A DNA stretch of 61,042 bases from Tortispora ganteri (Eukaryota), in NCBI GenBank assembly GCA_003707115.1, contig PPNB01000035.1:1-61042 (forward strand), given 5' to 3'. The notes under the pieces were generated by a model. That model did no database searches and had not been told where the DNA came from. It saw only the letters and a program-made list of their open reading frames with translations. The translations under genes were made by a program, and so were the position numbers. Positions within the stretch are counted from its first letter, which is position 1. Every line of letters begins with the position of its first letter. Below are positions 2,937 through 56,077 of the stretch, piece after piece.

Positions 2937-3066
2937 TGCGATGAAAATGATATATACATTAAGGAACATTATTTTCTGTCATTGAGGGCAGTAAATGGTC
3001 TGATTATTCTCTCCGCATATTTGTTTTCTTTGAAAAGTCGATTATTAGCTTTATTTGCATTAAGGA

Positions 3067-4083
3067 TCATCCGAAAGTTTTCATTATGAGGTCCCATGTG
3101 CCGAACATTATGATGCTGTTAGGCACAGTTCTCATTAGATGTGGAGTCAAGCCTCCATATAGGCTGACGAACCCTTCTTCGCGCCATACGAGCTTGAAAC
3201 ACTGTATGAGGCCTGTATATTTTGGTTGGCCTTGTATTAACGGTTTTTGCCTTAAACGAGTGCGAAGTACTTCATGTGGATATGTGAGTATTGAAGCGAC
3301 AACTTTTGCTAAACCGGCTGCACCTGATTTGGCTGCCCATCCTAAGAATTTGTCTGTTGTTGTTATTTCCAGACCTCTGGCTTGTCTTGACTGTTCTTTT
3401 TCAGTGACAAAAGTTTTCATGCGTTCGTATAGAATCCATTGCAACGTGCTTTCGACAACGCCTAGATAGGACGCGGTAAGCCCGCTGTACAGACCCTTTA
3501 TACCTTCATTTCTCATTACTTGGAGTGTGCAATCGAGCGAGTTCTTGTACTGTCGTTTTGCGTGAGCGGACTCGGCGTTTTCTTTGTCGAGCTGGAGCCG
3601 CGTTTTGATAAGCCATATGGGGTTAGTCGCAGTTGAGGTTGCGATACCTGCAGTTGCGGCTGACAGCAGATGGTTATAAGAAGATTCAGATGAAACACCA
3701 AATTTTTCCTCGAAAAGAGTCTTGCCGTTACTGTAACAATAAAAATTTATTGCTCTTGCAGGGATCACGCCCACGAGGTTAGGACCGAGTCCCTTGAAGA
3801 GTGCCTTGGGGCCTTCTATGGTGTAAACTTCTGTGATTATTCTGCATGTGTCGATGATGTGGCTGCCTGCCTGAGCGAAAGGCCTGGCTAGACCACGGTA
3901 GGTAGTGGCAGCTCGATGTCGGTCGATGTACATGTCCGATTGGAGTCGTGTTTTTACGACATCGAAGGGCGCTGTGACGACCGCACCGGCCATGCCGCCA
4001 ATACCGCCCGCAACAAAATGCAGCCATGTCCTGTTTGTTTTTTCGACGGAATTTTGATCCGCAACAGGTTTCACAGTGGCCAT
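3067..4083 (-). CDS. RIM2: Mitochondrial carrier, pyrimidine nucleotide transporter
   Basis: Three PxDxxK/R carrier motifs (PFDVVKTRLQ, PIWLIKTRLQ, PHEVLRTRLRQ) and the Rim2-typical GLGPNLVGVIPARAINF. Confidence 0.93.
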   Translation of the reverse strand: MATVKPVADQNSVEKTNRTWLHFVAGGIGGMAGAVVTAPFDVVKTRLQSDMYIDRHRAATTYRGLARPFAQAGSHIIDTCRIITEVYTIEGPKALFKGLGPNLVGVIPARAINFYCYSNGKTLFEEKFGVSSESSYNHLLSAATAGIATSTATNPIWLIKTRLQLDKENAESAHAKRQYKNSLDCTLQVMRNEGIKGLYSGLTASYLGVVESTLQWILYERMKTFVTEKEQSRQARGLEITTTDKFLGWAAKSGAAGLAKVVASILTYPHEVLRTRLRQKPLIQGQPKYTGLIQCFKLVWREEGFVSLYGGLTPHLMRTVPNSIIMFGTWDLIMKTFG

Positions 4084-4322
4084 CTTTGTTTAGATCTCGT
4101 CTAGGCTGGACGGTAACGAGGAAGGTAAAAACTGCGATCTGGGATAGGGATAGTATTCTCTCGGTGGCAGGAACGATGGCATATTGTCATTTTTAACAAC
4201 GAAAAACCGGTTATTTTTTGGTCTTTAGTTTTTCGAAATACGATATTTAATATTCTCTCTGGTTATGACGCTATATGTTCGTGAGCGTTGATAGCTGCGT
4301 AGCGCCGACAGACTAACGGGCT

Positions 4323-4366
4323 AGCCAGCGGGCAGCCAGCAGCCAGTCAGCAGCCAGTCAGCAGCC
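4323..4366. repeat. Short tandem repeat, unit CAGCAGCCAGT (about 3 copies plus partial units)
   Basis: agccagcgggcagc-cagcagccagt-cagcagccagt-cagcagcc between RIM2 and RPL21. Confidence 0.8.
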
Positions 4367-4494
4367 CTGATTCGATATTTTACTGCATTTTTAACACCTT
4401 TTGGTAAACTACATTCTCAGTTACAACTATACGTCACGCGAAGTTTCAAACCGCATGTGACCCTATTGGAAGTAGGAAGATCATTCATAGACAT

Positions 4495-4974
4495 CTAAAT
4501 GTAAGTCTCGTAAGGAATAGGGGCGACCAATTCGGGTTGCTCAGAGAGTGTAACAGTATGAGCTTCACGGGGGAGAATAGGGGTTCTCTTGAGAAGAACA
4601 GTCTCACCAGCAGCCTTAGCAGCTTTGCGCTTCTCAGCATTTTCCTTAACACGTTTGACGAACTCTTCACGACACTTTGAGTGTTTGATGTGTTCAACAC
4701 GGACAGAGATACGCTTCTCGATGTATCGGTTGCGGACTTGTTTATGAACAATAACACCAACAGAAGTTTTAGTGACATTAAAAACAACGCCGGTCTTTCC
4801 GTGATAGAACTTGTGGGGCATACCTTTGTGAATAGAACCGTTGACTTTGATGTCGACAATGTCTCCGACCTTATAAGTCTTCAAGTAGGTAGAAAGGGGT
4901 AGACCACCATGTTTGCGGAAATCCCGAGCAAACATGTATCGGGTTCCCGATCGATAACCGTGGGTATGTGCCAT
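4495..4974 (-). CDS. RPL21: 60S ribosomal protein L21 (eL21), no intron in CDS
   Basis: [18 protein letters not shown]...[29 protein letters not shown]...PYETYI. Confidence 0.99.
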
Positions 4975-5069
4975 TGTGTTTTGTTATTTAATGGTGCTTG
5001 CCTGGTAAAGCAGATACTAGTATTGCGGTCAATGGGTGTTGTGCGTTATTTGGAACTTGGGAGGATCAT

Positions 5070-5116
5070 TGTGACTGTTTTAGAGTAGTTGTTATAACAA
5101 CGAACTTAAACCCTAA
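5070..5116. promoter_or_regulatory. Homol-D box (TGTGACTG, 5070-5077) and telobox AAACCCTAA (5108-5116) upstream of RPL21
   Basis: Exact motif matches; similar motifs recur at RPS9 and RPS29. Confidence 0.65.
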
Positions 5117-5180
5117 TTGTGCCCTTTCTGCCTCGTTATTGTCCCATCGCCTTGCAGTAGAGGTCAATTTTGCGCCAGAA

Positions 5181-5957
5181 ATGCCAGAAGATCATGGTCG
5201 CAGGAAGGCCGATAGGGATTTGGATAATCCAAACTTACCACAATATGTGGCTAAGACCCCTTGGTACATGGGGGAGGCACCGATTAGCACGGAAGTTGCG
5301 GAAGTAGAACGGTCTAACCTGGAAGCGACCTTAAAAAGGCGGCTTGTAGAAGATGCACCTAAGAAGTTCAAAAAAGGCGCTTGTGAAAACTGTGGCGCTA
5401 CTAATCACAAGACAAAGGACTGTCTGGAACGTCCACGGAAGGTGAGCGCGAAATACAGCAAGAAGTTTAGCAAGAATGAAGAGATCAAGACCAGTGTAGC
5501 AAGCTATGACGCTAAACGCGATCGATGGAACGACTACGACTCAAACGATTACGAGAAGGTGCTGAAAGAATATAATCCTGACGAGAAAATTAATATACAG
5601 AAAGATTCGGAAGTTTTGAAACCCGGGACGTATGCGCGCACGCTGCGGGAAAGACACGATATTGCTGCATACCTACGAAAGGATACTGTTGGACGGTATA
5701 ATCCGAAGACACGGACGTTGAAGGAGGAAGTGGCAATTGGACAGCGTGATTTGAATGCTGATTTTGAAAAGTCAGACGATGTGGAAGCAGAAGTTGTTAA
5801 GAAGCGGCTGGCGTGGAAGACGAATAAGAGCAATACTAAGAGCGATACTTGTTCGATGGCCGCTGTTGCGGCTCCTACTGAGCAAGCATTGCTGCGCAAG
5901 CGAGAAAAGGAAACAAAGAACCAGACAGGAAATTACTTAGAAGAACGATATGGATGA
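5181..5957 (+). CDS. SLU7: Pre-mRNA splicing factor Slu7 (short form)
   Basis: NPNLPQYVAKTPWY, zinc knuckle KKGACENCGATNHKTKDCLERPRK, SYDAKRDRWNDYD, LRERHDIAAYL. First ATG is at 5181. Confidence 0.92.
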   Translation: MPEDHGRRKADRDLDNPNLPQYVAKTPWYMGEAPISTEVAEVERSNLEATLKRRLVEDAPKKFKKGACENCGATNHKTKDCLERPRKVSAKYSKKFSKNEEIKTSVASYDAKRDRWNDYDSNDYEKVLKEYNPDEKINIQKDSEVLKPGTYARTLRERHDIAAYLRKDTVGRYNPKTRTLKEEVAIGQRDLNADFEKSDDVEAEVVKKRLAWKTNKSNTKSDTCSMAAVAAPTEQALLRKREKETKNQTGNYLEERYG

Positions 5958-7188: not shown

Positions 7189-7506
7189 TTAAGTGATGAG
7201 CTGCCTAATTGGAATATGGATCTATTCTGTTAGCGGAGGTGGCCAAAGAAACATATAAAAAATACTTACAAGCTTGATAATGAAACCGATTAATCCAATA
7301 ACAATGAATCCGACGGTTATCATGCGGAATGTCTGTTTGTATTCTATGTAAAGGTTAGTGAAAGCTAAGAGATATTTGCAGTAGGGCAAGGCCGCTAACA
7401 AGTAATAAATACCTTTCTCATCGGGTTTTTTACATCGACGAATAAAATTATTGCCATCTTTGATAATAGATTGAGTTTGTTCAACGATTTCTTTAATTTC
7501 TGGCAT
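7189..7506 (-). CDS. SSS1: Sec61 translocon gamma subunit; 3 exons: 7506-7413, 7343-7270, 7221-7189
   Basis: Spliced protein MPEIKEIVEQTQSIIKDGNNFIRRCKKPDEKEYKQTFRMITVGFIVIGLIGFIIKLIHIPIRQLIT. Introns 7412-7344 and 7269-7222 have branch points ACTAAC and GCTAAC and TAG acceptors. Confidence 0.95.
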
Positions 7507-7717
7507 GGCTATAAAGAAGGGTGTTGGTGAATTGTAAAGGACACTTCTCTAACTAGACCCACCCTTGGGAGATGTTAGGAGAAGTCTTCTGCAGGGTATG
7601 ACAGCAGAGACCATAAAAAAAAAGACCATTAAATGATCTTATGATAATGTTTTGACAATTTGTTTATATAATATCGTAATATCGACCCAGATAATCATAG
7701 CTTGATATCAATTATCG

Positions 7718-8440
7718 CTAATCAAATCCCGCCCATTCGTCCTCGGACTCAGACTCAATGGGCGTGTATAGTCCCCATTCAACTAGTCGTTTATCGTTTT
7801 TCACGTCATCATCGAATTTACGCCGCAGTACCTTATTTCGGCAATCTGCAACTTCTATAAACGGCTGTGAAATAATTTCCAGTGCCGTCTTAATGGTTTC
7901 GCGGTCTGTGTCGCCGATAATTGACTCTAGCTCGTCAAGGTAGATATCGAGCAGGTGCAACCGAATCCCGTTTGGTGCACTATTCGAGTCTAATGCAAAC
8001 GCATGAACTCGCAATAGATCAGCAATCTGTTCGGCACTTTCACTTGTCCAGTGATTTCGTGCTACCTTCTTGAACATCGCATTCAATGTCCGTCGGATCA
8101 AGTACAGATACTTGTCTAGCCGATGACGGTCTAGCCTCGACCATTCCGCTCCATGTACTTTCCAGAAAGAAACCACAAACTGACTAAAGTTCTTATCATT
8201 AACAATCAGAAAAAGATTTGCCATGCGATCTGCCAACTCGTACTGGTACTTCGGACGATCTGCTAAATACATAGCATAGTACAAACCTTTCCACAGTTTG
8301 TCCGTTTCTTTCTGTTGCAGCACTTTCTGCCCACTCAAATACTTCTCCAACACATCTATAGCGCTGTCACGTGTACTACGATCAACTGATGCAAGTTTAC
8401 GTACAAAAGGATACTTTTTTGTACCGTCTACTGTCGTCAT
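7718..8440 (-). CDS. RRP1: Ribosomal RNA processing protein 1 (Nop52 family)
   Basis: FVRKLASVDRSTRD, KLWKGLYYAMYLADRP, EWSRLDRHRLDKYLYLIRR, PNGIRLHLLDIYLDEL. Confidence 0.93.
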   Translation of the reverse strand: MTTVDGTKKYPFVRKLASVDRSTRDSAIDVLEKYLSGQKVLQQKETDKLWKGLYYAMYLADRPKYQYELADRMANLFLIVNDKNFSQFVVSFWKVHGAEWSRLDRHRLDKYLYLIRRTLNAMFKKVARNHWTSESAEQIADLLRVHAFALDSNSAPNGIRLHLLDIYLDELESIIGDTDRETIKTALEIISQPFIEVADCRNKVLRRKFDDDVKNDKRLVEWGLYTPIESESEDEWAGFD

Positions 8441-8543
8441 TTACGTCTATCGAAAAAATTGACTTGGCTGTTCCCAGGTCTTTGGGACTTCCAACTCCAC
8501 CAGCCAATCACAGACTTTATCTTCTCATTTAACTGACCTGCAA

Positions 8544-9860
8544 ATGATAGACGTCTTGCTGCATGTATTTCGTTTAGTAGATAGACCACAGTTCAATGTA
8601 TTCTATGATCCTACTACGTTATCAGTTGTTACACGTTTTAAAACCTCAAAAGCTCCTCCACACCGTGATCTCGCACTTTGCGATCCCATCACTTACGCCT
8701 CTCTACGTCTACATTTCCATGATGGATCATCTGCATTATTAACGTCTACCTCTGATATCATCTCGTATGAGAACATCTCTAGTTGCGAGTTTGTACTTTC
8801 AAACTTTTTCTACAATAATCCTGCCCGGAGACCGTCTAGTAGACGTCTGCAAGCGGAATTGCGGTCTGCGCTCCTGATCCATTCTTTAATCGTCCCTGGG
8901 GGCACGTTTGAGCTCACTGTTGCTAAATCACGCGCTGTAGTTTTTGGTGGATCTTCACCAGAACACTGTTTGGCACGGTTTTCAAAATCTCAAGTTACAA
9001 GAACAAACAGAATCGTCAACGGTAATTCAACTGACCTTTACATAGCGCAGCTGAACGGCCCCCAGTTGATCGCTATCTTGAAATCCCGGAAATACATACA
9101 GCTTCCCCGTTCAATTTTAGCAAAACTAAGAAAACTTTTTGTCGGTCAGTCCCTAGTGGTTCAGCTTGCCCAGGATACGTCAATCTCTGACTTCCTCAAC
9201 AGTTTGCTTATGACTCCAACGTATATAGACGCTCGCTCTACCACCAACTTAGCAATCAGTTCAGATTCCCGAATAATTGGCCAATTTGCTGATTGCACTG
9301 TGTTAGTGAAATCTGCAAATAATTTAATTGCTCTTGATCAGCATGCCGCGAGCGAAAGAGTTAACCTGGAGTATTTAATCTCACAATACTTCTCATTTTC
9401 TTCTGTCACTCCTTCTTGTCATATATCTGCATACCTAGACTGCTGTGATAGAATGCTTCTACTTGAATACTTGCCTCAGATACAAATATGGGGTTTCACA
9501 CTTTGCATACACCATAGGCGGGTTGAAGTCATTCTTATACCATCCTTCTATGAACGTTATGGTTTGTCTACTAAATCACTTATCGCCGATCTGCTGTCCT
9601 ACTGCACACAACTACTCAACCAAGAAGTTTCTACAATTGAGTCTCTACCGACATCTATTCTTTTATTTATTAAACAGTGTCCTCGGTTTCTCTACAATGC
9701 ACTAGCTACAGTCAGTTGCCATAGAGCACTCAAGTTCGGCGATACCATTACAAGACACGACATGAACACCCTGTGGTCATCGTTAAACGGCTGTGCAATA
9801 CGTTTTCATTGTGCCCACGGCAGACCTACAATCGTACCAATCACTTCAACGTCAATCTGA
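8544..9860 (+). CDS. MLH3: MutL homolog, Mlh3-like, with degenerate N-terminal ATPase domain
   Basis: Endonuclease motif DQHAASERVNLE (DQHAx2Ex4E), SCHRALKFGD, and C-terminal FHCAHGRPTIVP. Confidence 0.8.
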   Translation: MIDVLLHVFRLVDRPQFNVFYDPTTLSVVTRFKTSKAPPHRDLALCDPITYASLRLHFHDGSSALLTSTSDIISYENISSCEFVLSNFFYNNPARRPSSRRLQAELRSALLIHSLIVPGGTFELTVAKSRAVVFGGSSPEHCLARFSKSQVTRTNRIVNGNSTDLYIAQLNGPQLIAILKSRKYIQLPRSILAKLRKLFVGQSLVVQLAQDTSISDFLNSLLMTPTYIDARSTTNLAISSDSRIIGQFADCTVLVKSANNLIALDQHAASERVNLEYLISQYFSFSSVTPSCHISAYLDCCDRMLLLEYLPQIQIWGFTLCIHHRRVEVILIPSFYERYGLSTKSLIADLLSYCTQLLNQEVSTIESLPTSILLFIKQCPRFLYNALATVSCHRALKFGDTITRHDMNTLWSSLNGCAIRFHCAHGRPTIVPITSTSI

Positions 9861-32135: not shown

Positions 32136-33488
32136 TCATAAGAAATTGTATATGAGGAAGGCTATGACAGGTATTGCGACTGCGCTGAACAGCAGGGCGA
32201 GTAATGTGAGATCTGCGAGGAATACAGGAGGACGACGTTTTTGTTTGCTGACTTTTTCAATGGTTTTTTCAAATGCTTCAGCCATTGCTTCTCTTGAAAA
32301 GTTGTTGTGAATGTGGTTTATGCCATTGTCGACCATTTTGGAGTAGGATGCATTGATGAACTCATCGTCAAAGCAGACTTTGTAGAGGACTTTTGCCCAT
32401 GCGTCGATATCGTTGGCATCTCTGAGCCATCCTGTTACATTTTCCTTGACAGTCTCTGTAGGTCCGCCGCTGTTCACGGCAATCACGGGCGTCCCTGCGT
32501 ACATGGACTCAAGGGGAACTATACCGAAGTGCTCGAACGCCGGGGTGTATAGCAATATGCGAGAGTTTTCAAGCAGAACAGCTTTCTCTGAGTCTGTAAT
32601 AGAAGGCAAAAAAAGCACATTGATCTGCGGGTCAATAGTATCGAAAGACTCTCCGGGGTTCCGTAGATAGTAGGTCAGTCGAAGATCTTTAGCGAGTGTG
32701 CACAGTTCGCTGAGATACTCGATATTCTCTGCGACACGTGGGTCGTAGCCACCAGCGATGACAAGCTTGAGTGTGAGTTTATCCTCTGTGCCAAGTTTTG
32801 GAAGGTGAATAAGTTTAGCATATGCTTTGAGGGCGAGTTCGACGTTCTTTTTCCTTTCGAAGCGGTTTATAGAAAGGACAGTGGTATAGGGGGCGATGAG
32901 AGTGGCCATGTGGCTCAACGTAATGCTAGGAGCAATAGGAACACATGGATAAATGACGTTTGGGGTCCGTTTAATGAATTTGAACGTTTTGGTAAACACA
33001 GAGCGGGTGAACTTCGAATTGACAAGGATCTCGTCCGCGACGGCTGTAGTTACCTGTTCCAACCAGTCCCAGGGCAGTCGGTAGAGAGAACGGATAGTAG
33101 AGGACCTCTGTGCAAGTAATTGGTCCGGGAAATGGCAATAGAAGACAATCTTAGAATCCGATCTCAGTCTCAGTAGCGGTAAGCAAGCGGATAGTTGATC
33201 TACAATGTACACATCGCTGTCTGTGGGTACAAACCAAGATAGGTAGAGTTGTCTGACAATGGCGCCGATTATATGGAACTTACCCGCTACGCTTCGAGGG
33301 AAGAAATCACCATACACATGGTATTCTATGAGCCCCTTTTTTATCTCCGTGAAGGCATGGTTGGGGTCGCAATGAGAAGTGTAGATTGAGACTTCATGGC
33401 CCAAATCTTGTAGTCCAAGCGCGGCATCTAGCACGAGTCTTTCGGCACCTCCTAGTCCCAGGTCTGGATGTATAAATGTGACTTTCAT
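32136..33488 (-). CDS. ALG2: Alpha-1,3/1,6-mannosyltransferase (GT4)
   Basis: FIHPDLGLGGAERLVLDAA, FYCHFPDQLL, SINRFERKKN, EHFGIVPLE. Confidence 0.97.
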   Translation of the reverse strand: MKVTFIHPDLGLGGAERLVLDAALGLQDLGHEVSIYTSHCDPNHAFTEIKKGLIEYHVYGDFFPRSVAGKFHIIGAIVRQLYLSWFVPTDSDVYIVDQLSACLPLLRLRSDSKIVFYCHFPDQLLAQRSSTIRSLYRLPWDWLEQVTTAVADEILVNSKFTRSVFTKTFKFIKRTPNVIYPCVPIAPSITLSHMATLIAPYTTVLSINRFERKKNVELALKAYAKLIHLPKLGTEDKLTLKLVIAGGYDPRVAENIEYLSELCTLAKDLRLTYYLRNPGESFDTIDPQINVLFLPSITDSEKAVLLENSRILLYTPAFEHFGIVPLESMYAGTPVIAVNSGGPTETVKENVTGWLRDANDIDAWAKVLYKVCFDDEFINASYSKMVDNGINHIHNNFSREAMAEAFEKTIEKVSKQKRRPPVFLADLTLLALLFSAVAIPVIAFLIYNFL

Positions 33489-40056: not shown

Positions 40057-41727
40057 TTACATACGCCAAACCCCGAAATTTTTATTATCAACTGTACGGC
40101 GACCGCCTCGAGAAGCTTCTATTGCCATTCCAAGCACACGTCTAGTGTCACATGGTTTGATAATACCGTCATCCCACAATCGTGAAGAACCAAATTTGAC
40201 GTCAGACTCTGCTTCAATTTGAGCGCGTAGCTTCTCTGTGGCTTCTGCGTTCTTACTGCCTACAGTAGACATAACTGAAGCGAGCTGCTCGGCACCCATT
40301 ACAGCAGTACGAGAGTTAGGCCAAGAGAACAAAAATCTTGGACTGTAAGCACGACCGCACATACCGTAGTTTCCTGCACCATATGAACCTCCAATCAAGA
40401 CCGTAAACCGTTCGACTCCCGAGCCAACCACTGCGTTGACAAGCTTAGCGCCATTCTTTGCAATTCCACCTCGTTCTGCAGCAGAACCAACCATGAATCC
40501 TGATATATTCTGCAAAAACACCAAAGGAATATCACGTTGCTTGCAGAGTTCAATAAAGTGAGCACCCTTGAGCGCAGATTCAGAAAAAAGAGGGCCTTGG
40601 TTCGCAAGGATACCGATCGGATGGCCATAAAGCTTAGACCAGCCGGTGACGAGAGTAGTACCGTATTCTCTCTTAAATTCTGCAAACTCAGATCCGTCGA
40701 CAATACGGGAAATGACTTCTCTCACATCATACGCGATACGAAGATTGTCGCCTACAACGCCATCAATTTCGGTAGGGTCGTATAGAGGTTCAGTAACAAT
40801 TGAAGGGTCAGCAGTAGTAACGTCGTTTTGGGGGTAATTAAGCATTGCAACTGCTTGCCGCATTCTGGCGATTCCTTCAGGCTCAGATTCGACAAGATGG
40901 TCAACAACTCCGGATATAGTGGCATGCATCTCGCCGCCACCCAAGTCCTCTGCTGAGACGACTTCACCAGTAGCAGCCTTCACAAGAGGCGGACCGGCCA
41001 GAAAGATATGGCCGCCTCCTTTGACAATAATTGTCTCGTCAGACATAGCAGGGACATAAGCGCCGCCGGCAGTACATGGACCAAGGACTAGTGAAAGTTG
41101 TGGAATATTCTTACCAGACATAGTCGACTGATTGAAGAAAATTCTGCCAAAATGCTCATGACCAGGGAACACATCCGACTGGTGAGGTAAATTGGCGCCG
41201 CCAGAGTCTACAAGGTAGACGCAAGGGAGGTTGTTTTCAATAGCGATTTCCTGAGCGCGAAGATGTTTGCGTACAGTGATCGGGTAGTAGGTACCGCCTT
41301 TTACGGTAGCGTCATTTGCAACAATAATACATCGAACACCAGAAATTGATCCAATACCAGTAACTAGACCGCCAGAAGGAACCTCTTCACCCGGGTACAA
41401 TTGATAGCCGGCTAATGGTGACAGTTCGAGAAAAGCAGAACCAGGGTCGATCAAGGACGCGATACGATCGCGTACAAGTAATTTATTACGAGAGATATGC
41501 TTCTGGCGAGCCTTTTCAGAACCACCTAAAGCAAATTTAGCGTGAAGTTGATCTAATTCGGAGATGAGGTCTTTCATTGCCTGCGACCGCTGGATGAACT
41601 CAGGGTCGCTGGGGTCAATTTTTGTCTTCAGCACAGACATTTGGTTCTGGATACCGGACGCGACATAAGTGTGGACTTTTCGGCGCCCTAGCCTCATTAC
41701 TGGTCTAGATAACACAGTAGATCTCAT
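40057..41727 (-). CDS. mccB: 3-methylcrotonyl-CoA carboxylase beta subunit (mitochondrial)
   Basis: ANDATVKGGTYYP, YLVDSGGANLP, CTAGGAYVPAM, GGSYGAGNYGMCGRAY, LWDDGII; Arg-rich presequence. Confidence 0.95.
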   Translation of the reverse strand: MRSTVLSRPVMRLGRRKVHTYVASGIQNQMSVLKTKIDPSDPEFIQRSQAMKDLISELDQLHAKFALGGSEKARQKHISRNKLLVRDRIASLIDPGSAFLELSPLAGYQLYPGEEVPSGGLVTGIGSISGVRCIIVANDATVKGGTYYPITVRKHLRAQEIAIENNLPCVYLVDSGGANLPHQSDVFPGHEHFGRIFFNQSTMSGKNIPQLSLVLGPCTAGGAYVPAMSDETIIVKGGGHIFLAGPPLVKAATGEVVSAEDLGGGEMHATISGVVDHLVESEPEGIARMRQAVAMLNYPQNDVTTADPSIVTEPLYDPTEIDGVVGDNLRIAYDVREVISRIVDGSEFAEFKREYGTTLVTGWSKLYGHPIGILANQGPLFSESALKGAHFIELCKQRDIPLVFLQNISGFMVGSAAERGGIAKNGAKLVNAVVGSGVERFTVLIGGSYGAGNYGMCGRAYSPRFLFSWPNSRTAVMGAEQLASVMSTVGSKNAEATEKLRAQIEAESDVKFGSSRLWDDGIIKPCDTRRVLGMAIEASRGGRRTVDNKNFGVWRM

Positions 41728-42020: not shown

Positions 42021-43244
42021 ATGCTTAAGACTAATTTTATACGAACATCTACTCGTGCAGTTACTAATGCGACCACTCTCCGCGTCGCCTCCCAGGTACG
42101 TTTTGCTCACGTCGACGCGGAAGAACTTCGCGACGCAACGGTAGCTTTCTGTCAGGCAGAGATCCCGCGTGAGCTCGCCTTCGAGGTCGACAGATCTAAT
42201 ACCTTCCCGCACCATCTCTGGAAGAAGTTTGGCGAAGCCGGTCTTCTCGGTATAACTGCCCCAGAGAAGTATGGCGGTCTTGATGCCGGCTACCTTGCCC
42301 ACTGCGTTGTCCTTGAAGAAATTTCTCGCGCGTCTGGCTCAATTGGTCTCTCCTACGCAGCACATTCGCAGCTCTGTGTCAACCAGCTGACTCTGCACGC
42401 GAATGAGATGCAGAAGGAGAAGTACCTTGTGCCTCTGGTCGCCGGCGACAAGGTCGGCGCACTTGCCATGTCGGAGGCGGGTGCTGGTTCCGATGTCGTC
42501 TCGATGCGCACCCGCGCAGACAAAGTTGATGGTGGATACCTGCTTAACGGCTCAAAGATGTGGATTACCAATGGTCCTACTGCTGATATACTCGTTGTCT
42601 ATGCGAAAACTGACCCTGCTGCGGGCAAGAACGGTATCACTGCTTTCATCGTCGAAAAGGGTTTCAAAGGCTTCAAGGTCGAGAGGAAACTCGACAAGTT
42701 CGGTATGCGTGGCTCAGATACCGGCGAACTTGTTTTTGAAGATGTCTTTATTCCTGAAGAAAATATTCTCGGACCGCTCAATAAGGGTGTCTACGTCTTA
42801 ATGAAAGGCCTCGATCTTGAACGTCTTGTACTGTCCGCTGGACCCATTGGGTTAATGCAGGCTGCTCTTGACGAAACACTTCCCTATGTTCATACCAGAC
42901 AACAATTTGGCAAGCCTATCGCTCATCAGCAACTTGTTCAAGGCCGTCTAGCTGACATGTACACTAAATTCGCAGCCTCTAAGGCTTTTGTCTATAGCAC
43001 CGCTAAGGACTGTGACAATGGAAAGGTTGATACCAAAGACTGCGCCGGTGCTATCCTCTACGCTGCTGAACGCGCCACCGAAGTAGCATTAGATGCAATT
43101 CAACTCATGGGTGGTATGGGCTATATGAACGAAACTTCTCCTGGCAGAATCTTGCGTGACGCTAAGCTTTACGAGATCGGCGCTGGAACATCGGAGATCC
43201 GCCGTATGGTTATTGGCCGTGCCTTCAACAAGGAGTACAAGTAA
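42021..43244 (+). CDS. ivdA: Isovaleryl-CoA dehydrogenase (mitochondrial)
   Basis: [67 protein letters not shown]. Confidence 0.95.
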
Positions 43245-50720: not shown

Positions 50721-50728
50721 GCACGTGC
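50721..50728. promoter_or_regulatory. E-box GCACGTGC (Pho4-like) upstream of the GT4 gene
   Basis: Palindromic CACGTG core lacking the RTCAC flank typical of Cbf1 sites, about 180 bp upstream of the ATG. Confidence 0.4.
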
Positions 50729-50906: not shown

Positions 50907-52103
50907 ATGAAAGTAGCCTTGATTACAGAAGTATCACCACTGCACGTAAACGGCGTATCAAGAGCCATATCTAGACTCTTGGAACATCTCACCGCAGAAG
51001 GGCATCAAATATTGGTAATCGGACCTGCTGGAGGTGATCATTATGGCGCAAAACTTGTCGCTTGCCCAGGAATCTCGCTCCAGTTCTATCCGGAGCTCAA
51101 ACTGTGCTTTGCAACTTATGCTGCGTTAAAAGCTCTAATTGATTTTCAGCCAGATGTCTTACACTTCGCTGATCCGAATCTTTTAGGACCTCAAATAATA
51201 TTGGCATGTGAGCTGCTCTTCCCAAATGTTCCTAAAGTATCCTCCTATCACACAAATATTGCACAGTATGCCGGACAATTTGGCTATGGATACCTCACAA
51301 ACGCGATCTGGCATTTGTTGCGGTTATATCACAGCAGATGCTCATACGTTATGTGTCCGTCAAATGGAACTAAACGCCTACTTGTAGAGCATGGATTTGA
51401 CTCTTCAAAGGTGTTAATCTGGTCAAGAGGAGTCAATCTGAGTTCTTTCAACGCATCAAAGCGAGACTCGGCACTGAGACGCCATTGGCTTCAGCAATTC
51501 TCTATATTTGACACAGACGATGAAGGCGACGAAGGTATATCATTCTCTCCTAATATTACCAGGCGTGCAACCATCCTACTTTACGTAGGAAGGCTGTCTT
51601 GGGAGAAGAATTTGAGAATTTTAGTCAGTTCTTTCTTGAGAGCTCGTCAGATCGATCAAAGTGTTGTGCTTGTGCTCGTGGGAGATGGTCCTGCAAGAAA
51701 TGATTTAGAGACTTTACTTAAGGGGCACCCAGCTATATTCACAGGCTATTTGAAAGGAGACGCATTGGCAAAGGCATATGCCTCTGCTGATGTGTTCGGA
51801 TTTCTTTCAAAGACCGAGACATTCGGGCAAGTAGTCCTTGAAGCACTTGCCAGCGGTTTACCAGTAATTGGCATCAAAGACGCACCCGGGGTTTCAGAAA
51901 TAGTCACAAATGAAGTGGCTTGTCTCGTGAAAGAAGAGGTTGACAGTATAGTAGACTCTATTATTGCGATGGGACACGTATCAGGAACGAAGCGGAAAGA
52001 GATCAAGAAATTGTGTATGCAAAGGGCTTCACAATTCACATGGGACGCGGCAGGTCGTTCGGTGTCGGAAACGTATAAACTTGCCATAAATAAATGCAAC
52101 TAG
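50907..52103 (+). CDS. Glycosyltransferase family 4, PimA/SQD2/Agt-like
   Basis: MKVALITE...VNGVS, SYHTN, WSRGV, YVGRLSWEKN, VGDGP, YASADVF, Ex7E motif ETFGQVVLEALASGLPV. Confidence 0.88.
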   Translation: MKVALITEVSPLHVNGVSRAISRLLEHLTAEGHQILVIGPAGGDHYGAKLVACPGISLQFYPELKLCFATYAALKALIDFQPDVLHFADPNLLGPQIILACELLFPNVPKVSSYHTNIAQYAGQFGYGYLTNAIWHLLRLYHSRCSYVMCPSNGTKRLLVEHGFDSSKVLIWSRGVNLSSFNASKRDSALRRHWLQQFSIFDTDDEGDEGISFSPNITRRATILLYVGRLSWEKNLRILVSSFLRARQIDQSVVLVLVGDGPARNDLETLLKGHPAIFTGYLKGDALAKAYASADVFGFLSKTETFGQVVLEALASGLPVIGIKDAPGVSEIVTNEVACLVKEEVDSIVDSIIAMGHVSGTKRKEIKKLCMQRASQFTWDAAGRSVSETYKLAINKCN

Positions 52104-54183: not shown

Positions 54184-56077
54184 TCATGTCGCGGTTTGCT
54201 GGATAACCATTATGACCTGGTTAGCCAAGGCATTCACTTCCCCTTCTCCTTCCACATCTACTTCCTCGCCATTTGCTAGATTAGACGGTTCTGGAACTGG
54301 TCTGCGCGCCAATACTGTGACTGCGTCGATTAGGTCCTCAGAATTCAAAATCAAGCTCTTGAGCTTGTCGTCATTAGAATCTAACAGCTGCAGCATAGTC
54401 CAAACTGCAATATGTTCAAACGTCGTGTCCTGGCTCGTTAGAAATCTCTGCAAATATCCATGGATTCCCCCGTCAGGTGATTCCCAGTTCTCAATAAAAG
54501 GATTGAACACCTGGATCTTGGAACTTAGGTTTCCCAGCGCAGCCGCACTATTTCCTTGAACGTCTAAACTAACAGAATGCGTGAGGGGGATAAGAACTGT
54601 GAAAATTCCTGATTCAAGCAATATTGGTTTCAGCTCTTCGCTTAATGCAAGCACAGCTAAACATGCCGTCATTTCACTCTGCACCGATAGAGGAACAGAT
54701 AGGATCAAATTTTTGCAAGTTTCAACAGCACCTGCATCAACGATAGCCCGCTTATTACGTTCAGAACTCGCTGCCAAATTCCTAAGCGTAGAAATGGCGT
54801 GACATTGAATCTCCTCGTTGTCGCTATTGTTCAACAACTCGACCAGAGGCTTCAAAAATCCAGCATCAACAATCGGACTTTCGTTCAGAGGATGAATTGA
54901 AATATTTCTAATACATGCAACCGACGAAAGTACCAGAGGCATATAGCCAGATACCAAAAGGCGTTTCAAGGGTTCCAAACCGTTGTTCCTCACTATATCC
55001 AGCTGATAATTTTCATCACTGGCCAAATTTCTCAATGCTAAAGCCGCTTGACATTGCACACGAGCGCTTGTAGAATCCATCAAATGAATTAAATAGTTAA
55101 CTAAACGCGGCTCTGTTTGCGCAAGTTTCTTCCTGTTAGCAGGGTCCACCGCAATATTACTCAAAGCCGTAGTACAGTAGTAATGTACATCAACATCAGT
55201 GCTACTCAAAAGAGAAACAAGAACAGGAATGGCACCAGCATTTACCAACTCTTGTCTGTTTTGATCGGAATGAGTCATGTTAAGAAGCGCCCCTGTAGCA
55301 TTTCGCTGAACACGCATATCTTTAGACTTTGCCAATTTTGTAAGAGGTACAAGCGCACCTGATCTGGCTATCTTAGTTTTGTTGCTTTCATGAGTAGCAA
55401 GATTAGTGATACAACCGACGGCATTGCATTGGACCTCCACATTCGGAGACATCATTTGACGAATCAAAGGTTCCAATCCGCCCATCTCAACGATCAGCAC
55501 TTTATTGTCATCATCAACTGCAAGGTTCCCCAAAGCAGCAGAGGCAGCACGTTGAACTTCTATGTCGTTTGTTTGAAGTAAAAGCAAAATCGGCTCCAAG
55601 GCATCTCTCGTCACGGGACGTACATCTTTCTCCGTGATTTCTGCAAATGCCAGAGCCGCACTTCTATGTAGGTCAACATTATCGGAATACACTAAAGTGC
55701 AAAGAGCACGTAAAGGGCCATCGGTAAAGAAATCGACATCGTTGCGATTCTCCAAATACCTAAGGAGCAACGCGACAGCTTCCCTTTCGTTATCGGCGAG
55801 TAGAGGGGCGTACCCGTCCTTTGACTTAGCTAATATGAAGTTAGTTCCTAATGTTCCAAAATTTTATTATTTCCTGCAAAATTCCAATGCATTTTATGTG
55901 CTTTTTACGCGAGGTTCTGTAAGATTACTCTGCTAGTTGGAGTTTCAGAAATTGACTCGCCTTAATCATGAGAAGAGATGTTGCGGAGTCGTGCCCGCGT
56001 TAAGAGTAATCCCACGGTGGCGCTATATAAAGATACTTACATCGACAACAAATACAAGATGAAATAACACCTCCCAT
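54184..56077 (-). CDS. VAC8: Vacuolar armadillo-repeat protein; exons 56077-56041 and 55829-54184
   Basis: Spliced N-terminus [35 protein letters not shown] (myristoyl/palmitoyl SH4); ARM repeats [12 protein letters not shown] and [14 protein letters not shown]; 211-nt intron 56040-55830. Confidence 0.96.

What the first reader, a model, noticed from the sequence alone, without database searches (positions are those of the whole stretch)
50907..52103. Bacterial/plant-type GT4 (SQD2/Agt/PimA-like) in a yeast: possible glycolipid synthase, possibly horizontally acquired
Seen: an intronless 398-aa GT-B enzyme with no signal peptide. Its motifs (KVALITE..P..VNGVS, SYHTN, WSRGV, YVGRLSWEKN, ETFGQVVLEALASGLPV) differ from those of Alg2 in this window and do not look like Alg11, Gpi3 or glycogen synthase. 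Known: this GT4 subgroup includes plant/cyanobacterial SQD2/SqdX and bacterial Agt/MgtA-type enzymes that make sulfo-, glucuronosyl- or glucosyl-diacylglycerol. S. cerevisiae has no such gene. Inference: an undescribed yeast glycoglycerolipid pathway, from HGT or patchy retention.
Basis: partly seen in the sequence, partly recalled or inferred. Interest (0 to 1): 0.7.

Follow-up and report, generated by a model that had tools for sequence, protein, structure and literature searches.

The report
Uncharacterised fungal GT4 sugar transferase gene
This yeast gene encodes an intact sugar-transferring enzyme of a little-studied family that many fungi inherited from an ancient bacterial donor, and it may build an unrecognised membrane glycolipid, though that is not yet shown.

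Summary
The ORF at 50907..52103 (+) is real. It has no signal peptide or transmembrane segment.

It is not peculiar to this yeast and is not a recent transfer:
- Tortispora caseinolytica has a 94% identical protein.
- Yarrowia and Geotrichum hold orthologues that share a yeast-only insertion.
- Composition and codon usage match the neighbouring genes.

In a careful tree the fungal sequences form one clade, with Mucoromycota sister to yeasts plus Basidiomycota. That clade sits inside sequences from Ktedonobacteria (Chloroflexota). This points to one ancient inter-domain transfer followed by vertical descent and many losses.

Function is unproven. Sequence profiles favour glycerolipid-acting relatives: PimA, GpgS and an alga's "sulfolipid synthase". 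Eight of 24 fungal-clade relatives carry a C-terminal membrane anchor. A published survey finds the UDP-glucuronate pathway in budding yeasts only in Tortispora, Lipomyces and Yarrowia. Structure ranking, however, puts soluble-acceptor enzymes first.

No characterised SQD2, SqdX or Agt sequence could be retrieved, so membership of that group stays untested.

The parts
50907..52103 (+). Complete intronless ORF, 398 aa plus stop: GT4 (GT-B) glycosyltransferase
   Evidence: It is 94% identical to the T. caseinolytica GT4 protein P0002.
50946..51443 (+). N-terminal Rossmann-like (acceptor-side) domain, residues 14-179. It holds G16 and the family-invariant loop Y61-P62-E63-L64.
   Evidence: Pfam Glyco_transf_4, E 5e-26. 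Invariant columns are listed in alignment A1.
51243..51257 (+). SYHTN motif (residues 113-117), invariant in all 35 aligned fungal and Ktedonobacteria relatives
   Evidence: The same motif was used as the search pattern.
51495..51569 (+). Acidic inter-domain loop (residues about 197-221) containing DEGDEGISF. It is an insertion shared only by the budding-yeast orthologues and is predicted to be disordered.
   Evidence: Alignment A1 columns about 225-285. Mean pLDDT is 55-60 for residues 201-220.
51543..51971 (+). C-terminal Rossmann-like (nucleotide-sugar) domain, residues 213-355
   Evidence: Pfam Glycos_transf_1, E 2.6e-26.
51588..51611 (+). GRLSWEKN (residues 228-235), with invariant R229 and K234. 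Their role in binding the diphosphate of the donor is recalled from GT4 structures and was not tested.
   Evidence: Invariant columns.
51816..51842 (+). EX7E motif, E304 to E312, within ETFGQVVLE
   Evidence: Both glutamates are invariant. It is the only stretch shared with the second GT4 of the window.
50722..50727 (.). Single CACGTG E-box 185 bp upstream of the ATG. It is a lead only for Pho4/Cbf1-type control.
   Evidence: CACGTK is not enriched in the window (46 matches, 47.8 expected).

Best explanation
The ORF encodes an active-looking, cytosolic, retaining GT4 glycosyltransferase. It belongs to an uncharacterised fungal orthogroup. The yeast inherited the gene vertically. The orthogroup is present in Mucoromycota, Basidiomycota and early-branching budding yeasts (Tortispora, Yarrowia, Geotrichum) and has evidently been lost from most other budding yeasts. 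Its only close non-fungal relatives are in Ktedonobacteria, within whose sequences the fungal clade nests. The family therefore probably entered fungi once, from such a bacterium, before Mucoromycota and Dikarya split. Inferred mechanism, not shown: the enzyme takes a UDP-sugar and transfers it with retention to the headgroup position of a membrane glycerolipid on the cytosolic face of a membrane. The donor is most likely UDP-glucuronate or UDP-glucose, and the acceptor most likely diacylglycerol, otherwise PI or PG. The product would be a non-phosphorus or modified glycolipid. My odds: real GT4 enzyme gene of this orthogroup 0.95; vertical inheritance within fungi 0.9; transfer direction bacterium to fungus 0.65; glycerolipid acceptor 0.45; glucuronosyl-diacylglycerol specifically 0.2.
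For: Gene and fold: (Z 38.7 to MshA, 358 residues aligned, rmsd 2.7). The catalytic-type residues G16, H115, R229, K234, E304 and E312 are invariant in 35 relatives. Native status: GC 0.444, GC3 0.404 and RSCU correlation 0.564, against window means of GC3 0.424 (sd 0.048) and correlation 0.545 (sd 0.213) over 30 ORFs. The flanking genes are ordinary eukaryotic ones. Orthologues: T. caseinolytica 94%, Geotrichum 48%, and Yarrowia YALI0E26279p in the P0007 cluster. The yeast orthologues share an insertion. Careful IQ-TREE of 45 rows, supports as UFBoot/SH-aLRT: yeasts 100/99; yeasts with P0008 and P0009 100/99; Basidiomycota 100/98; Dikarya 97/94; Mucoromycota 98/93; all fungal rows 99/97; fungi plus 7 Ktedonobacteria 97/85; plus Thermosporothrix 100/99; plus a second Ktedonobacterales clade 100/98. 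The AU test rejects all 11 Ktedonobacteria rows as one clade (p 0.0017). All 80 best prokaryote loci are Ktedonobacteria/Chloroflexota. Lipid lean: the family profile aligns over its full length to only one kind of solved protein, PimA (positions 1-378, E 4.8e-18); the other solved matches listed are partial, nearly all starting at profile position 136 or later. The only full-length NCBIfam match is the GlcNAc-phosphatidylglycerol synthase GpgS (function read in PMC12713373, section 12). There is 33% identity to a 'sulfolipid synthase'-labelled algal protein. Eight of 24 fungal-clade relatives have a hydrophobic segment at the extreme C-terminus. Donor lean: passages of PMC8092308 state that, among Saccharomycetales, the UDP-GlcA pathway is predicted only in Tortispora caseinolytica, Lipomyces and Yarrowia.
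Against: No member of the orthogroup has a tested function, and 10 literature searches found none. Structure ranks enzymes with soluble acceptors first: MshA Z 38.7, sucrose-phosphate synthase 38.1, BshA 36.1. Lipid-acting enzymes rank lower: PimB' 34.3, PimA 32.5, DGD2 28.8. The NCBIfam GpgS score is 104.8 against a cut-off of 480. This yeast's protein has no membrane anchor. In Ktedonobacteria the conserved neighbours are an LCP-family protein (35 of 80 loci), PD40 repeats (37), a Ser/Thr kinase (41) and a PMT_2 GT-C (26). That is an envelope-glycan flavour, not a lipid-remodelling one. A phospholipase C lies next to the gene in only 1 of 80 loci. Only 12 of the 39 'fungal' rows carry a fungal name; the rest are unnamed and judged fungal by their placement. 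The 8 nearer Ktedonobacteria rows are not rejected as one clade (p 0.15). The transfer direction therefore rests on the second bacterial clade being the next outgroup and on a root outside the 35-row clade. The AU groups were named after the tree had been seen. The UDP-GlcA co-occurrence rests on three yeast lineages. Per PMC8092308 the UDP-GlcA pathway is predicted in most Ascomycota lineages, yet only one Pezizomycotina relative of this GT4 was named.
Confidence: 0.5

Rival explanations
1. The enzyme glycosylates a small soluble acceptor in the cytosol, such as an inositol phosphate, a sugar phosphate, an organic acid or a secondary metabolite, rather than a lipid. MshA, BshA and sucrose-phosphate synthase work this way.
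For: The best structural matches are MshA (Z 38.7), sucrose-phosphate synthase (38.1) and BshA (36.1), all aligned over the whole model (Foldseek order agrees). The yeast, Mucoromycota and Ktedonobacteria proteins have no membrane segment. The search-listing abstract of PMC5498572 reports a rice SQD2-like enzyme involved in flavonoid glycosylation.
Against: Sequence identity to all these structures is 22% or less, and fold rank does not reveal the acceptor. At sequence-profile level MshA, BshA and SPS match only from about profile position 140-200 onward, whereas PimA matches end to end. C-terminal anchors in 8 of 24 relatives place the enzyme at a membrane.
Confidence: 0.3
2. The enzyme initiates or extends a cell-envelope glycan or a glycoprotein, for example on a polyprenol-linked or wall-polymer acceptor.
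For: In Ktedonobacteria the gene sits in a conserved block with a divergently transcribed LCP-family wall-polymer ligase homologue (35 of 80 loci) and a convergent PMT_2 GT-C glycosyltransferase (26 of 80). GT4 structures that act on polyprenol-linked sugars (PglA, WaaG-type) are also good matches (Z 30-33).
Against: The neighbours are on the opposite strand, and the species are close kin, so the block may be plain synteny. Fungi have no LCP system. Nothing in the window links the gene to wall synthesis.
Confidence: 0.12
3. It is a true sulfolipid (SQDG) synthase, orthologous to plant SQD2 or cyanobacterial SqdX.
For: Three Yarrowia sp. records carry the automatic name 'Sulfoquinovosyl transferase SQD2'. 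There is 33% identity (E 2e-50) to Chloropicon 'sulfolipid synthase'.
Against: The labelled algal protein lies in a different clade, with choanoflagellates and Rhodothermia-type bacteria. No UDP-sulfoquinovose synthase candidate was seen among 30 window ORFs or 26 Ktedonobacteria neighbour proteins. The names are automatic and untested.
Confidence: 0.03
4. The gene came into the Tortispora lineage recently from a bacterium.
For: Bacterial proteins at 40-46% identity crowd the hit list. The Tortispora branch is long (1.27).
Against: Tortispora groups with Yarrowia and Geotrichum at 100/99 and shares their insertion. GC, GC3 and codon usage are typical of the window. A sister species holds the protein at 94% identity.
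Confidence: 0.02

Closest known systems
Uncharacterised fungal GT4 orthogroup: T. caseinolytica 'glycosyltransferase family 4 protein' (P0002) and Yarrowia lipolytica YALI0E26279p (P0125)
   Same: 94% identity (Tortispora) and about 45% (Yarrowia). Same length class, same motifs and the same yeast-specific acidic insertion. One clade at 100/99.
   Different: Nothing of substance: this is a member of that orthogroup. None of its members has a tested function. YALI0E26279 occurs in no paper of the searched library.
Ktedonobacteria (Chloroflexota) GT4 proteins, e.g. from Ktedonobacter, Dictyobacter, Thermosporothrix, Tengunoibacter
   Same: 40-46% identity over the full length. The motifs SYHTN, YPEL, GR.S.EKN and ETFGQ..LE are invariant. 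They are the closest non-fungal clade.
   Different: They lack the yeast insertion and are bacterial. Their conserved neighbours (LCP, PD40, kinase, PMT_2) have no counterpart in the window. Their function is untested.
SQD2/SqdX-type sulfolipid and glucuronosyl-lipid synthases. The role of plant SQD2 in SQDG and GlcADG synthesis is recalled; for PMC3586718 I saw only the search listing and the start of the abstract.
   Same: GT4 with the same motif layout. There is 33% identity to an alga's 'sulfolipid synthase'. Automatic SQD2 names are attached to Yarrowia orthologues.
   Different: The labelled relative is in another clade and carries an N-terminal membrane segment. No characterised SQD2, SqdX or Agt sequence could be retrieved for a direct test. 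No UDP-sulfoquinovose synthase was seen nearby.
GpgS, GlcNAc-phosphatidylglycerol synthase of Pseudomonas aeruginosa (NCBIfam NF053787; PMC12713373, abstract and section 12 read)
   Same: It is the only NCBIfam model that matches both domains (residues 22-391, E 4e-30). Like this protein, it is a cytoplasmic GT4 without a membrane segment, and it acts on a glycerolipid.
   Different: The score of 104.8 is far below the family cut-off of 480, so this protein is not a member. No deacetylase or flippase partner lies beside it.
PimA, phosphatidylinositol mannosyltransferase of mycobacteria (PDB 2gej, 4n9w)
   Same: It is the only solved protein that the family profile matches end to end (E 4.8e-18). 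It has the same fold (Z 32.5, 339 residues aligned, rmsd 3.5). It is a peripheral membrane GT4.
   Different: Identity is 21-22%. PimA uses GDP-mannose. Structurally it ranks below MshA, SPS and BshA.
MshA, inositol-phosphate GlcNAc transferase (PDB 3c4q)
   Same: It is the best structural match (Z 38.7, rmsd 2.7, 358 residues aligned; Foldseek E 1e-20).
   Different: Identity is 18-20%. The sequence profile matches only the C-terminal half. Its acceptor is soluble.

Membership tests
CAZy GT4 / retaining GT-B glycosyltransferases (Pfam Glyco_transf_4 + Glycos_transf_1) | Both Pfam domains score above their gathering cut-offs, in the N-to-C order | tested here: met
   92.2 bits (cut-off 28.5) at residues 14-179; 92.6 bits (cut-off 26.4) at residues 213-355.
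CAZy GT4 / retaining GT-B glycosyltransferases (Pfam Glyco_transf_4 + Glycos_transf_1) | Two Rossmann-like domains with a C-terminal helix crossing back (GT-B fold) | tested here: met
   Model pLDDT 89.4. Z is 30-39 to 35 or more GT4 structures over residues 1-397.
CAZy GT4 / retaining GT-B glycosyltransferases (Pfam Glyco_transf_4 + Glycos_transf_1) | EX7E motif, an Arg/Lys pair and an N-domain Gly/His (the roles of these residues are recalled from GT4 structures) | tested here: met
   E304 and E312, R229 and K234, G16 and H115 are present and invariant in 35 relatives. Catalysis itself is not testable here.
Fungal plus Ktedonobacteria GT4 orthogroup (unnamed) | Placement inside the clade with strong support, and the shared invariant motifs SYHTN, YPEL, GR.S.EKN and ETFGQ..LE | tested here: met
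   32-row clade at 100/99, fungal clade at 99/97, yeast clade at 100/99. Motifs.
SQD2/SqdX sulfolipid synthase | Orthology to an experimentally characterised SQD2 or SqdX | not testable with these tools
   No characterised sequence could be retrieved. Thirty representatives were looked up by name, and 240 listed hits were checked. The only labelled relative, Chloropicon 'sulfolipid synthase', falls in another clade at 33% identity.
SQD2/SqdX sulfolipid synthase | A UDP-sulfoquinovose synthase (SQD1/SqdB) in the genome, often adjacent in bacteria | tested here: inconclusive
   None among 30 window ORFs of 200 aa or more, nor among 26 neighbour proteins from 7 Ktedonobacteria loci. The whole genome is not held.
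Agt-type glucosyl/glucuronosyl-diacylglycerol synthase of phosphate-starved bacteria | Pairing with a phospholipase C that supplies diacylglycerol | tested here: not met
   A Zn-dependent phospholipase C lies directly upstream on the same strand in 1 of 80 Ktedonobacteria loci (L014). None lies in the window.
Agt-type glucosyl/glucuronosyl-diacylglycerol synthase of phosphate-starved bacteria | Availability of the donor UDP-glucuronate in the organism | not tested
   Literature only: passages of PMC8092308 predict the pathway in T. caseinolytica, Lipomyces and Yarrowia alone among Saccharomycetales. This genome could not be searched.
GpgS, GlcNAc-phosphatidylglycerol synthase (NF053787) | Score at or above the curated cut-off of 480 bits | tested here: not met
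   104.8 bits, although the match spans both domains.
PimA, phosphatidylinositol mannosyltransferase | Close sequence kinship to PimA | tested here: inconclusive
   There is a full-length profile match at E 4.8e-18, but identity is only 21-22% and Z is 30-32.5, below several other GT4 enzymes.
Canonical yeast GT4s (Alg2, Alg11, Gpi3) | Significant full-length similarity | tested here: not met
   Against the second GT4 ORF of the window (32136..33488 -, presumed Alg2, identity not verified), BLASTP gives E 0.056 over 48 residues only. Alg11 and Gpi3 were not tested.

The most novel reading that the evidence does not exclude
Fungi hold an unrecognised two-gene route to a non-phosphorus anionic membrane lipid: UDP-glucose dehydrogenase plus this GT4, making glucuronosyl-diacylglycerol (or glucosyl-diacylglycerol). 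On this reading the transferase was captured from a Ktedonobacteria-like soil bacterium before Mucoromycota and Dikarya diverged, and it is kept only in lineages that still make UDP-glucuronate. Among budding yeasts those are Tortispora, Yarrowia and perhaps Lipomyces.
Probability: 0.2. Interest if true: 0.75.

Novelty: new member of a known kind. Interest (0 to 1): 0.42.

Why it matters
This fungal-wide GT4 orthogroup has no assigned function, yet it is present in the genetically tractable yeast Yarrowia lipolytica and in oleaginous or pathogenic fungi such as Rhodotorula, Rhizomucor and Malassezia. If it makes a glycoglycerolipid, fungal membrane biology gains a lipid class so far tied to plants, algae and bacteria, together with a possible phosphate-sparing response. 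Whatever the function, the tree gives a well-supported case of an ancient gene exchange between Chloroflexota (Ktedonobacteria) and early fungi, followed by vertical descent. It also explains why the gene looks 'bacterial' in a yeast. It may further account for why a few budding yeasts keep UDP-glucuronate synthesis.

Tried and rejected
1. Whole-genome search of the window's own assembly: no genome is held. UGD, SQD1 and paralogues could therefore not be sought.
2. Placing a characterised SQD2, SqdX or Agt in the tree: three name look-ups covering 30 representatives and two further database searches produced no characterised plant, cyanobacterial or Agrobacterium sequence. They gave only an alga's 'sulfolipid synthase' label plus choanoflagellate and Rhodothermia-type proteins.
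3. ESM Atlas: only generic bacterial GT4 clusters, some named alpha-1,6-mannosyltransferase, and no structure search.
4. Sequence search of the PDB with the single protein: only C-terminal-half matches.
5. Expression: no RNA holder was listed for the stretch.
6. Phosphate-control motif: there is one CACGTG 185 bp upstream, but CACGTK is not enriched in the window (46 matches against 47.8 expected). It remains a lead only.
7. Phospholipase C pairing in bacteria: 1 of 80 loci, so it is not a general feature.
8. Earlier findings of this scan: nothing by place, sequence or words.
9. Literature: 10 searches found no paper on a fungal member. The ranking favoured papers with many fungal names, so a paper pairing GlcADG with one fungus could have been missed. 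PMC10629195 (Mucoromycota lipid genes) contains none of SQD2, sulfoquinovos-, glucuron- or GT4.
10. The first tree (FastTree, 170 rows) and the quick tree of 72 rows left the base of the fungal/Ktedonobacteria clade unresolved, with the fungal split at support 64. They were superseded by the careful 45-row tree.
Full report
**Observation**

The window holds an ATG-to-stop ORF at 50907..52103 on the + strand, 398 codons. Pfam places Glyco_transf_4 on residues 14-179 and Glycos_transf_1 on residues 213-355, both about 92 bits against cut-offs of 26-29. An AlphaFold2 model built on a 35-sequence alignment has mean pLDDT 89.4 and pTM 0.87. It shows two Rossmann-like halves joined by a poorly predicted loop (residues 201-220, pLDDT 55-60).

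Foldseek and VIA-align match the whole model to solved GT4 enzymes. The best is MshA (Z 38.7, rmsd 2.7, 358 residues aligned), and sequence identity is never above 22%. The protein starts with the first beta strand, exactly where its relatives start. No 19-residue window reaches Kyte-Doolittle 1.7.

The window's second GT4 ORF (32136..33488, - strand, 450 aa) shares only the EX7E stretch with this protein (E 0.056). I did not verify that it is Alg2.

**Who has the gene**

The nearest protein is the 'glycosyltransferase family 4 protein' of Tortispora caseinolytica NRRL Y-17796, at 94% identity over the full length. The window therefore comes from a close relative of that yeast.

- Next comes Geotrichum candidum (48%), then unnamed sequences, then a cluster holding Yarrowia lipolytica YALI0E26279p.
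- Three Yarrowia sp. records in that cluster carry the automatic name 'Sulfoquinovosyl transferase SQD2'.
- Further named fungal relatives are Calcarisporiella, Rhizomucor and Umbelopsis (Mucoromycota); Mixia, Malassezia, Rhodotorula and two Mycena species (Basidiomycota); and, on a long branch, Aulographum (Dothideomycetes).
- Bacterial hits at 40-46% identity are nearly all named Ktedonobacteria.
- A scan of one genome per prokaryote species with the family's two most conserved peptides found 286 relatives among 292 pattern matches. All 80 best loci are Ktedonobacteria or are labelled Chloroflexota/Chloroflexia.
- An exhaustive HMMER pass over 1.84 billion cluster representatives gave 504 proteins at E ≤ 1e-30 and 7,248 at E ≤ 1e-10.

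**History of the gene**

I built three trees.

- FastTree on 170 rows: the 150 best representatives plus named and near hits, keeping rows of at least 300 aa.
- A quick IQ-TREE PMSF tree on 72 of these rows.
- A careful IQ-TREE PMSF tree with 1,000 ultrafast bootstraps on 45 rows.

For the careful tree I dropped 27 rows before the run. These were long-branch rows, short fragments and close duplicates: P0151, P0217, P0165, P0171, P0211, P0182, P0143, P0155, P0158, P0162, P0262, P0203, P0176, P0212, P0187, P0191, P0141, P0139, P0147, P0148, P0169, P0153, P0164, P0213, P0198, P0232 and P0157.

In the careful tree the supports (UFBoot/SH-aLRT) are:

| Grouping | Support |
|---|---|
| The two Tortispora proteins with the Yarrowia and Geotrichum groups | 100/99 |
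| These plus two unnamed sequences (P0008, P0009) | 100/99 |
| Basidiomycota | 100/98 |
| The yeast-lineage clade plus Basidiomycota | 97/94 |
| Mucoromycota | 98/93 |
| All 24 fungal rows | 99/97 |
| Fungal clade plus 7 Ktedonobacteria rows | 97/85 |
| These plus Thermosporothrix | 100/99 |
| These plus a second Ktedonobacterales clade (P0142, P0045, P0117) | 100/98 |

The internal order of the fungal clade is thus the order of the fungal species tree. Forcing all 11 Ktedonobacteria rows into one clade costs 23.2 log-likelihood units (AU p 0.0017). Forcing only the 8 nearer rows together is not rejected (p 0.15).

Caveats:
- Both test groups were named after I had seen the tree.
- The root is a midpoint root lying outside the 35-row clade.
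- In the 72-row tree only 12 of the 39 'fungal' rows bear a fungal name; the others are unnamed and judged fungal by placement. There the fungal split had support of only 64.

Independent of trees, the budding-yeast orthologues alone share an acidic insertion containing DEG[VI]SF between the two domains. The ORF's GC (0.444), GC3 (0.404) and codon-usage correlation with the rest of the window (0.564) lie within one standard deviation of the 30 ORFs of the window. Its neighbours are ordinary eukaryotic genes: a Ctr9-like TPR protein upstream, and a DnaJ+RRM protein and an Arm-repeat protein downstream.

Reading: the gene is native to this yeast and was inherited from the common ancestor of Mucoromycota and Dikarya. 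The family most likely entered fungi once, from a Ktedonobacteria-like bacterium. I put the odds of that direction at about 0.65. The patchy presence in budding yeasts reflects loss elsewhere.

**What it does: evidence for a glycerolipid acceptor**

The residues that GT4 enzymes use are all present and invariant in the 35-sequence alignment: G16, H115, R229, K234 and the EX7E pair E304/E312. Their roles are recalled from solved GT4 structures. An active enzyme is therefore likely.

- The family profile aligns over its full length (positions 1-378) to only one kind of solved protein, PimA, the phosphatidylinositol mannosyltransferase (E 4.8e-18). The other solved matches listed are partial, nearly all starting at profile position 136 or later.
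- Of 29 NCBIfam matches, the best, and the only one of the 25 shown that spans both domains, is GpgS (104.8 bits; cut-off 480, so this protein is not a member). GpgS is the enzyme that puts GlcNAc on phosphatidylglycerol in Pseudomonas aeruginosa (PMC12713373; abstract and section 12 read).
- The protein is 33% identical over 355 residues to a Chloropicon protein labelled 'sulfolipid synthase'.
- Among 24 proteins of the fungal clade, 8 have a hydrophobic segment at the extreme C-terminus, which looks like a tail anchor. They are P0008, P0009, Malassezia, Rhodotorula, Mycena filopes, P0113, P0140 and P0144. None of the 3 Ktedonobacteria proteins examined has one, and neither does the window's protein.
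- The family consensus has an aromatic and basic stretch, YPELKFNFFRPLF.RRL, in the N-domain.

**What it does: evidence against, or neutral**

- Structure ranks soluble-acceptor enzymes first: MshA 38.7, sucrose-phosphate synthase 38.1, BshA 36.1. PimB' (34.3), PimA (32.5) and DGD2 (28.8) come lower.
- In Ktedonobacteria the conserved neighbours are a divergent LCP-family gene (35 of 80 loci), PD40-repeat genes (37), a Ser/Thr kinase (41) and a convergent PMT_2 GT-C (26).
- A Zn-dependent phospholipase C directly upstream on the same strand occurs in only 1 of 80 loci (L014, a second copy in Thermosporothrix).
- No UDP-sulfoquinovose synthase candidate was seen.

**Donor sugar**

A kingdom-wide survey of nucleotide-sugar enzymes (PMC8092308; passages read) states that the UDP-glucuronate pathway is absent from Saccharomycetales except in Tortispora caseinolytica, Lipomyces and Yarrowia. 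It is present in Mucoromycota and in most Basidiomycota. Two of those three yeast lineages are exactly the ones where I find this GT4. P0008 and P0009, unnamed sisters of the yeast clade, could be a third, but that is a guess.

This fits a UDP-glucuronate donor. Such a donor would make the product glucuronosyl-diacylglycerol, as for plant SQD2 (recalled; for PMC3586718 I saw only the listing and the start of the abstract). The evidence is thin: three lineages, one paper, Geotrichum not mentioned, and the UDP-GlcA pathway predicted in most Ascomycota lineages while only one Pezizomycotina relative of this GT4 was named.

**Comparison with known families**

The protein is a GT4 by every test. 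It is a member of an unnamed fungal plus Ktedonobacteria orthogroup. It is not GpgS by score, and it is not like the other GT4 of the window.

Whether it belongs with SQD2, SqdX or Agt could not be tested, because no characterised sequence of those enzymes could be retrieved with the tools. The one labelled relative sits in another clade, with choanoflagellates and Rhodothermia-type bacteria.

No paper on any fungal member turned up in 10 searches. bioRxiv supplements are closed and I opened no supplement, so gene lists in supplements may mention it.

**Verdict**

This is a real, intact, native gene: a new member of a known enzyme kind, in an orthogroup of unknown function.

- The 'possible glycolipid synthase' idea remains the leading reading but is unproven, at about 0.45. 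A soluble acceptor stands at about 0.3.
- The HGT idea holds only as an ancient event at the base of the fungi, not in this yeast.
- Interest is moderate. The gene offers an easy experiment in Yarrowia and a clean ancient bacterium-to-fungus transfer, but nothing here is out of line with what GT4 enzymes are known to do.

Noticed in passing
Its identity was not verified. It shares only the EX7E stretch with the finding's protein (E 0.056).
   Followed up: partly
window 40057..41727 (-) and 42021..43244 (+): A divergent pair: a carboxyl-transferase protein (Carboxyl_trans, E 4e-145) and an acyl-CoA dehydrogenase (three domains). It looks like the methylcrotonyl-CoA carboxylase beta / isovaleryl-CoA dehydrogenase pair of leucine breakdown. 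From memory, that pathway is missing in S. cerevisiae. It may be a second example of retention in this early-branching yeast.
   Followed up: no
L014:5067-5984 (+), next to L014:6001-7149 (Thermosporothrix hazakensis): A Zn-dependent phospholipase C ORF ends 13 bases before a second copy of the GT4, on the same strand, with a methyltransferase upstream. This is the arrangement expected for lipid remodelling (phospholipid to diacylglycerol to glycolipid). It occurs in only 1 of 80 loci.
   Followed up: partly
L001, L005, L016, L051, L074 and others, positions about 1000-5600 and 7300-8900: A conserved block surrounds the Ktedonobacteria gene: a Ser/Thr kinase (77-99% identical to the L001 copy in 32 of the 41 loci that hold one), PD40-repeat proteins and a long LCP-family protein on the opposite strand upstream, and a PMT_2 GT-C glycosyltransferase convergent downstream.
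   Followed up: partly
proteins P0008, P0009, P0134, P0138, P0113, P0140, P0144, P0170 (C-termini): Basidiomycete orthologues, and two unnamed sisters of the yeast clade, carry long low-complexity extensions that end in a single hydrophobic segment at the extreme C-terminus (tail-anchor-like). The yeast, Mucoromycota and bacterial forms lack it.
   Followed up: partly
proteins P0197, P0185, P0328, P0329, P0322: Choanoflagellates (Stephanoeca, Barroeca, Salpingoeca rosetta, Monosiga brevicollis) and the green alga Chloropicon share a different clade of this GT4 superfamily, with Salinibacter/Rhodothermia-type bacteria. Of the three whose hydropathy was checked (Chloropicon, S. rosetta, M. brevicollis), all have an N-terminal membrane segment. 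This looks like another eukaryote-bacterium patchwork.
   Followed up: no
window 5181..5957 (+) and 54184..55485 (-): The Slu7-domain ORF (258 aa) matches its Pfam profile only from position 76 onward. The Arm-repeat (Vac8-like) ORF of 433 aa looks short at its N-terminus. Both may have a 5' exon separated by an intron, whereas the GT4 gene is intronless.
   Followed up: no
window 50722..50727: One palindromic CACGTG lies 185 bp upstream of the GT4 start codon. It could be a Pho4/Cbf1-type site, but the motif is not enriched in the window.
   Followed up: partly
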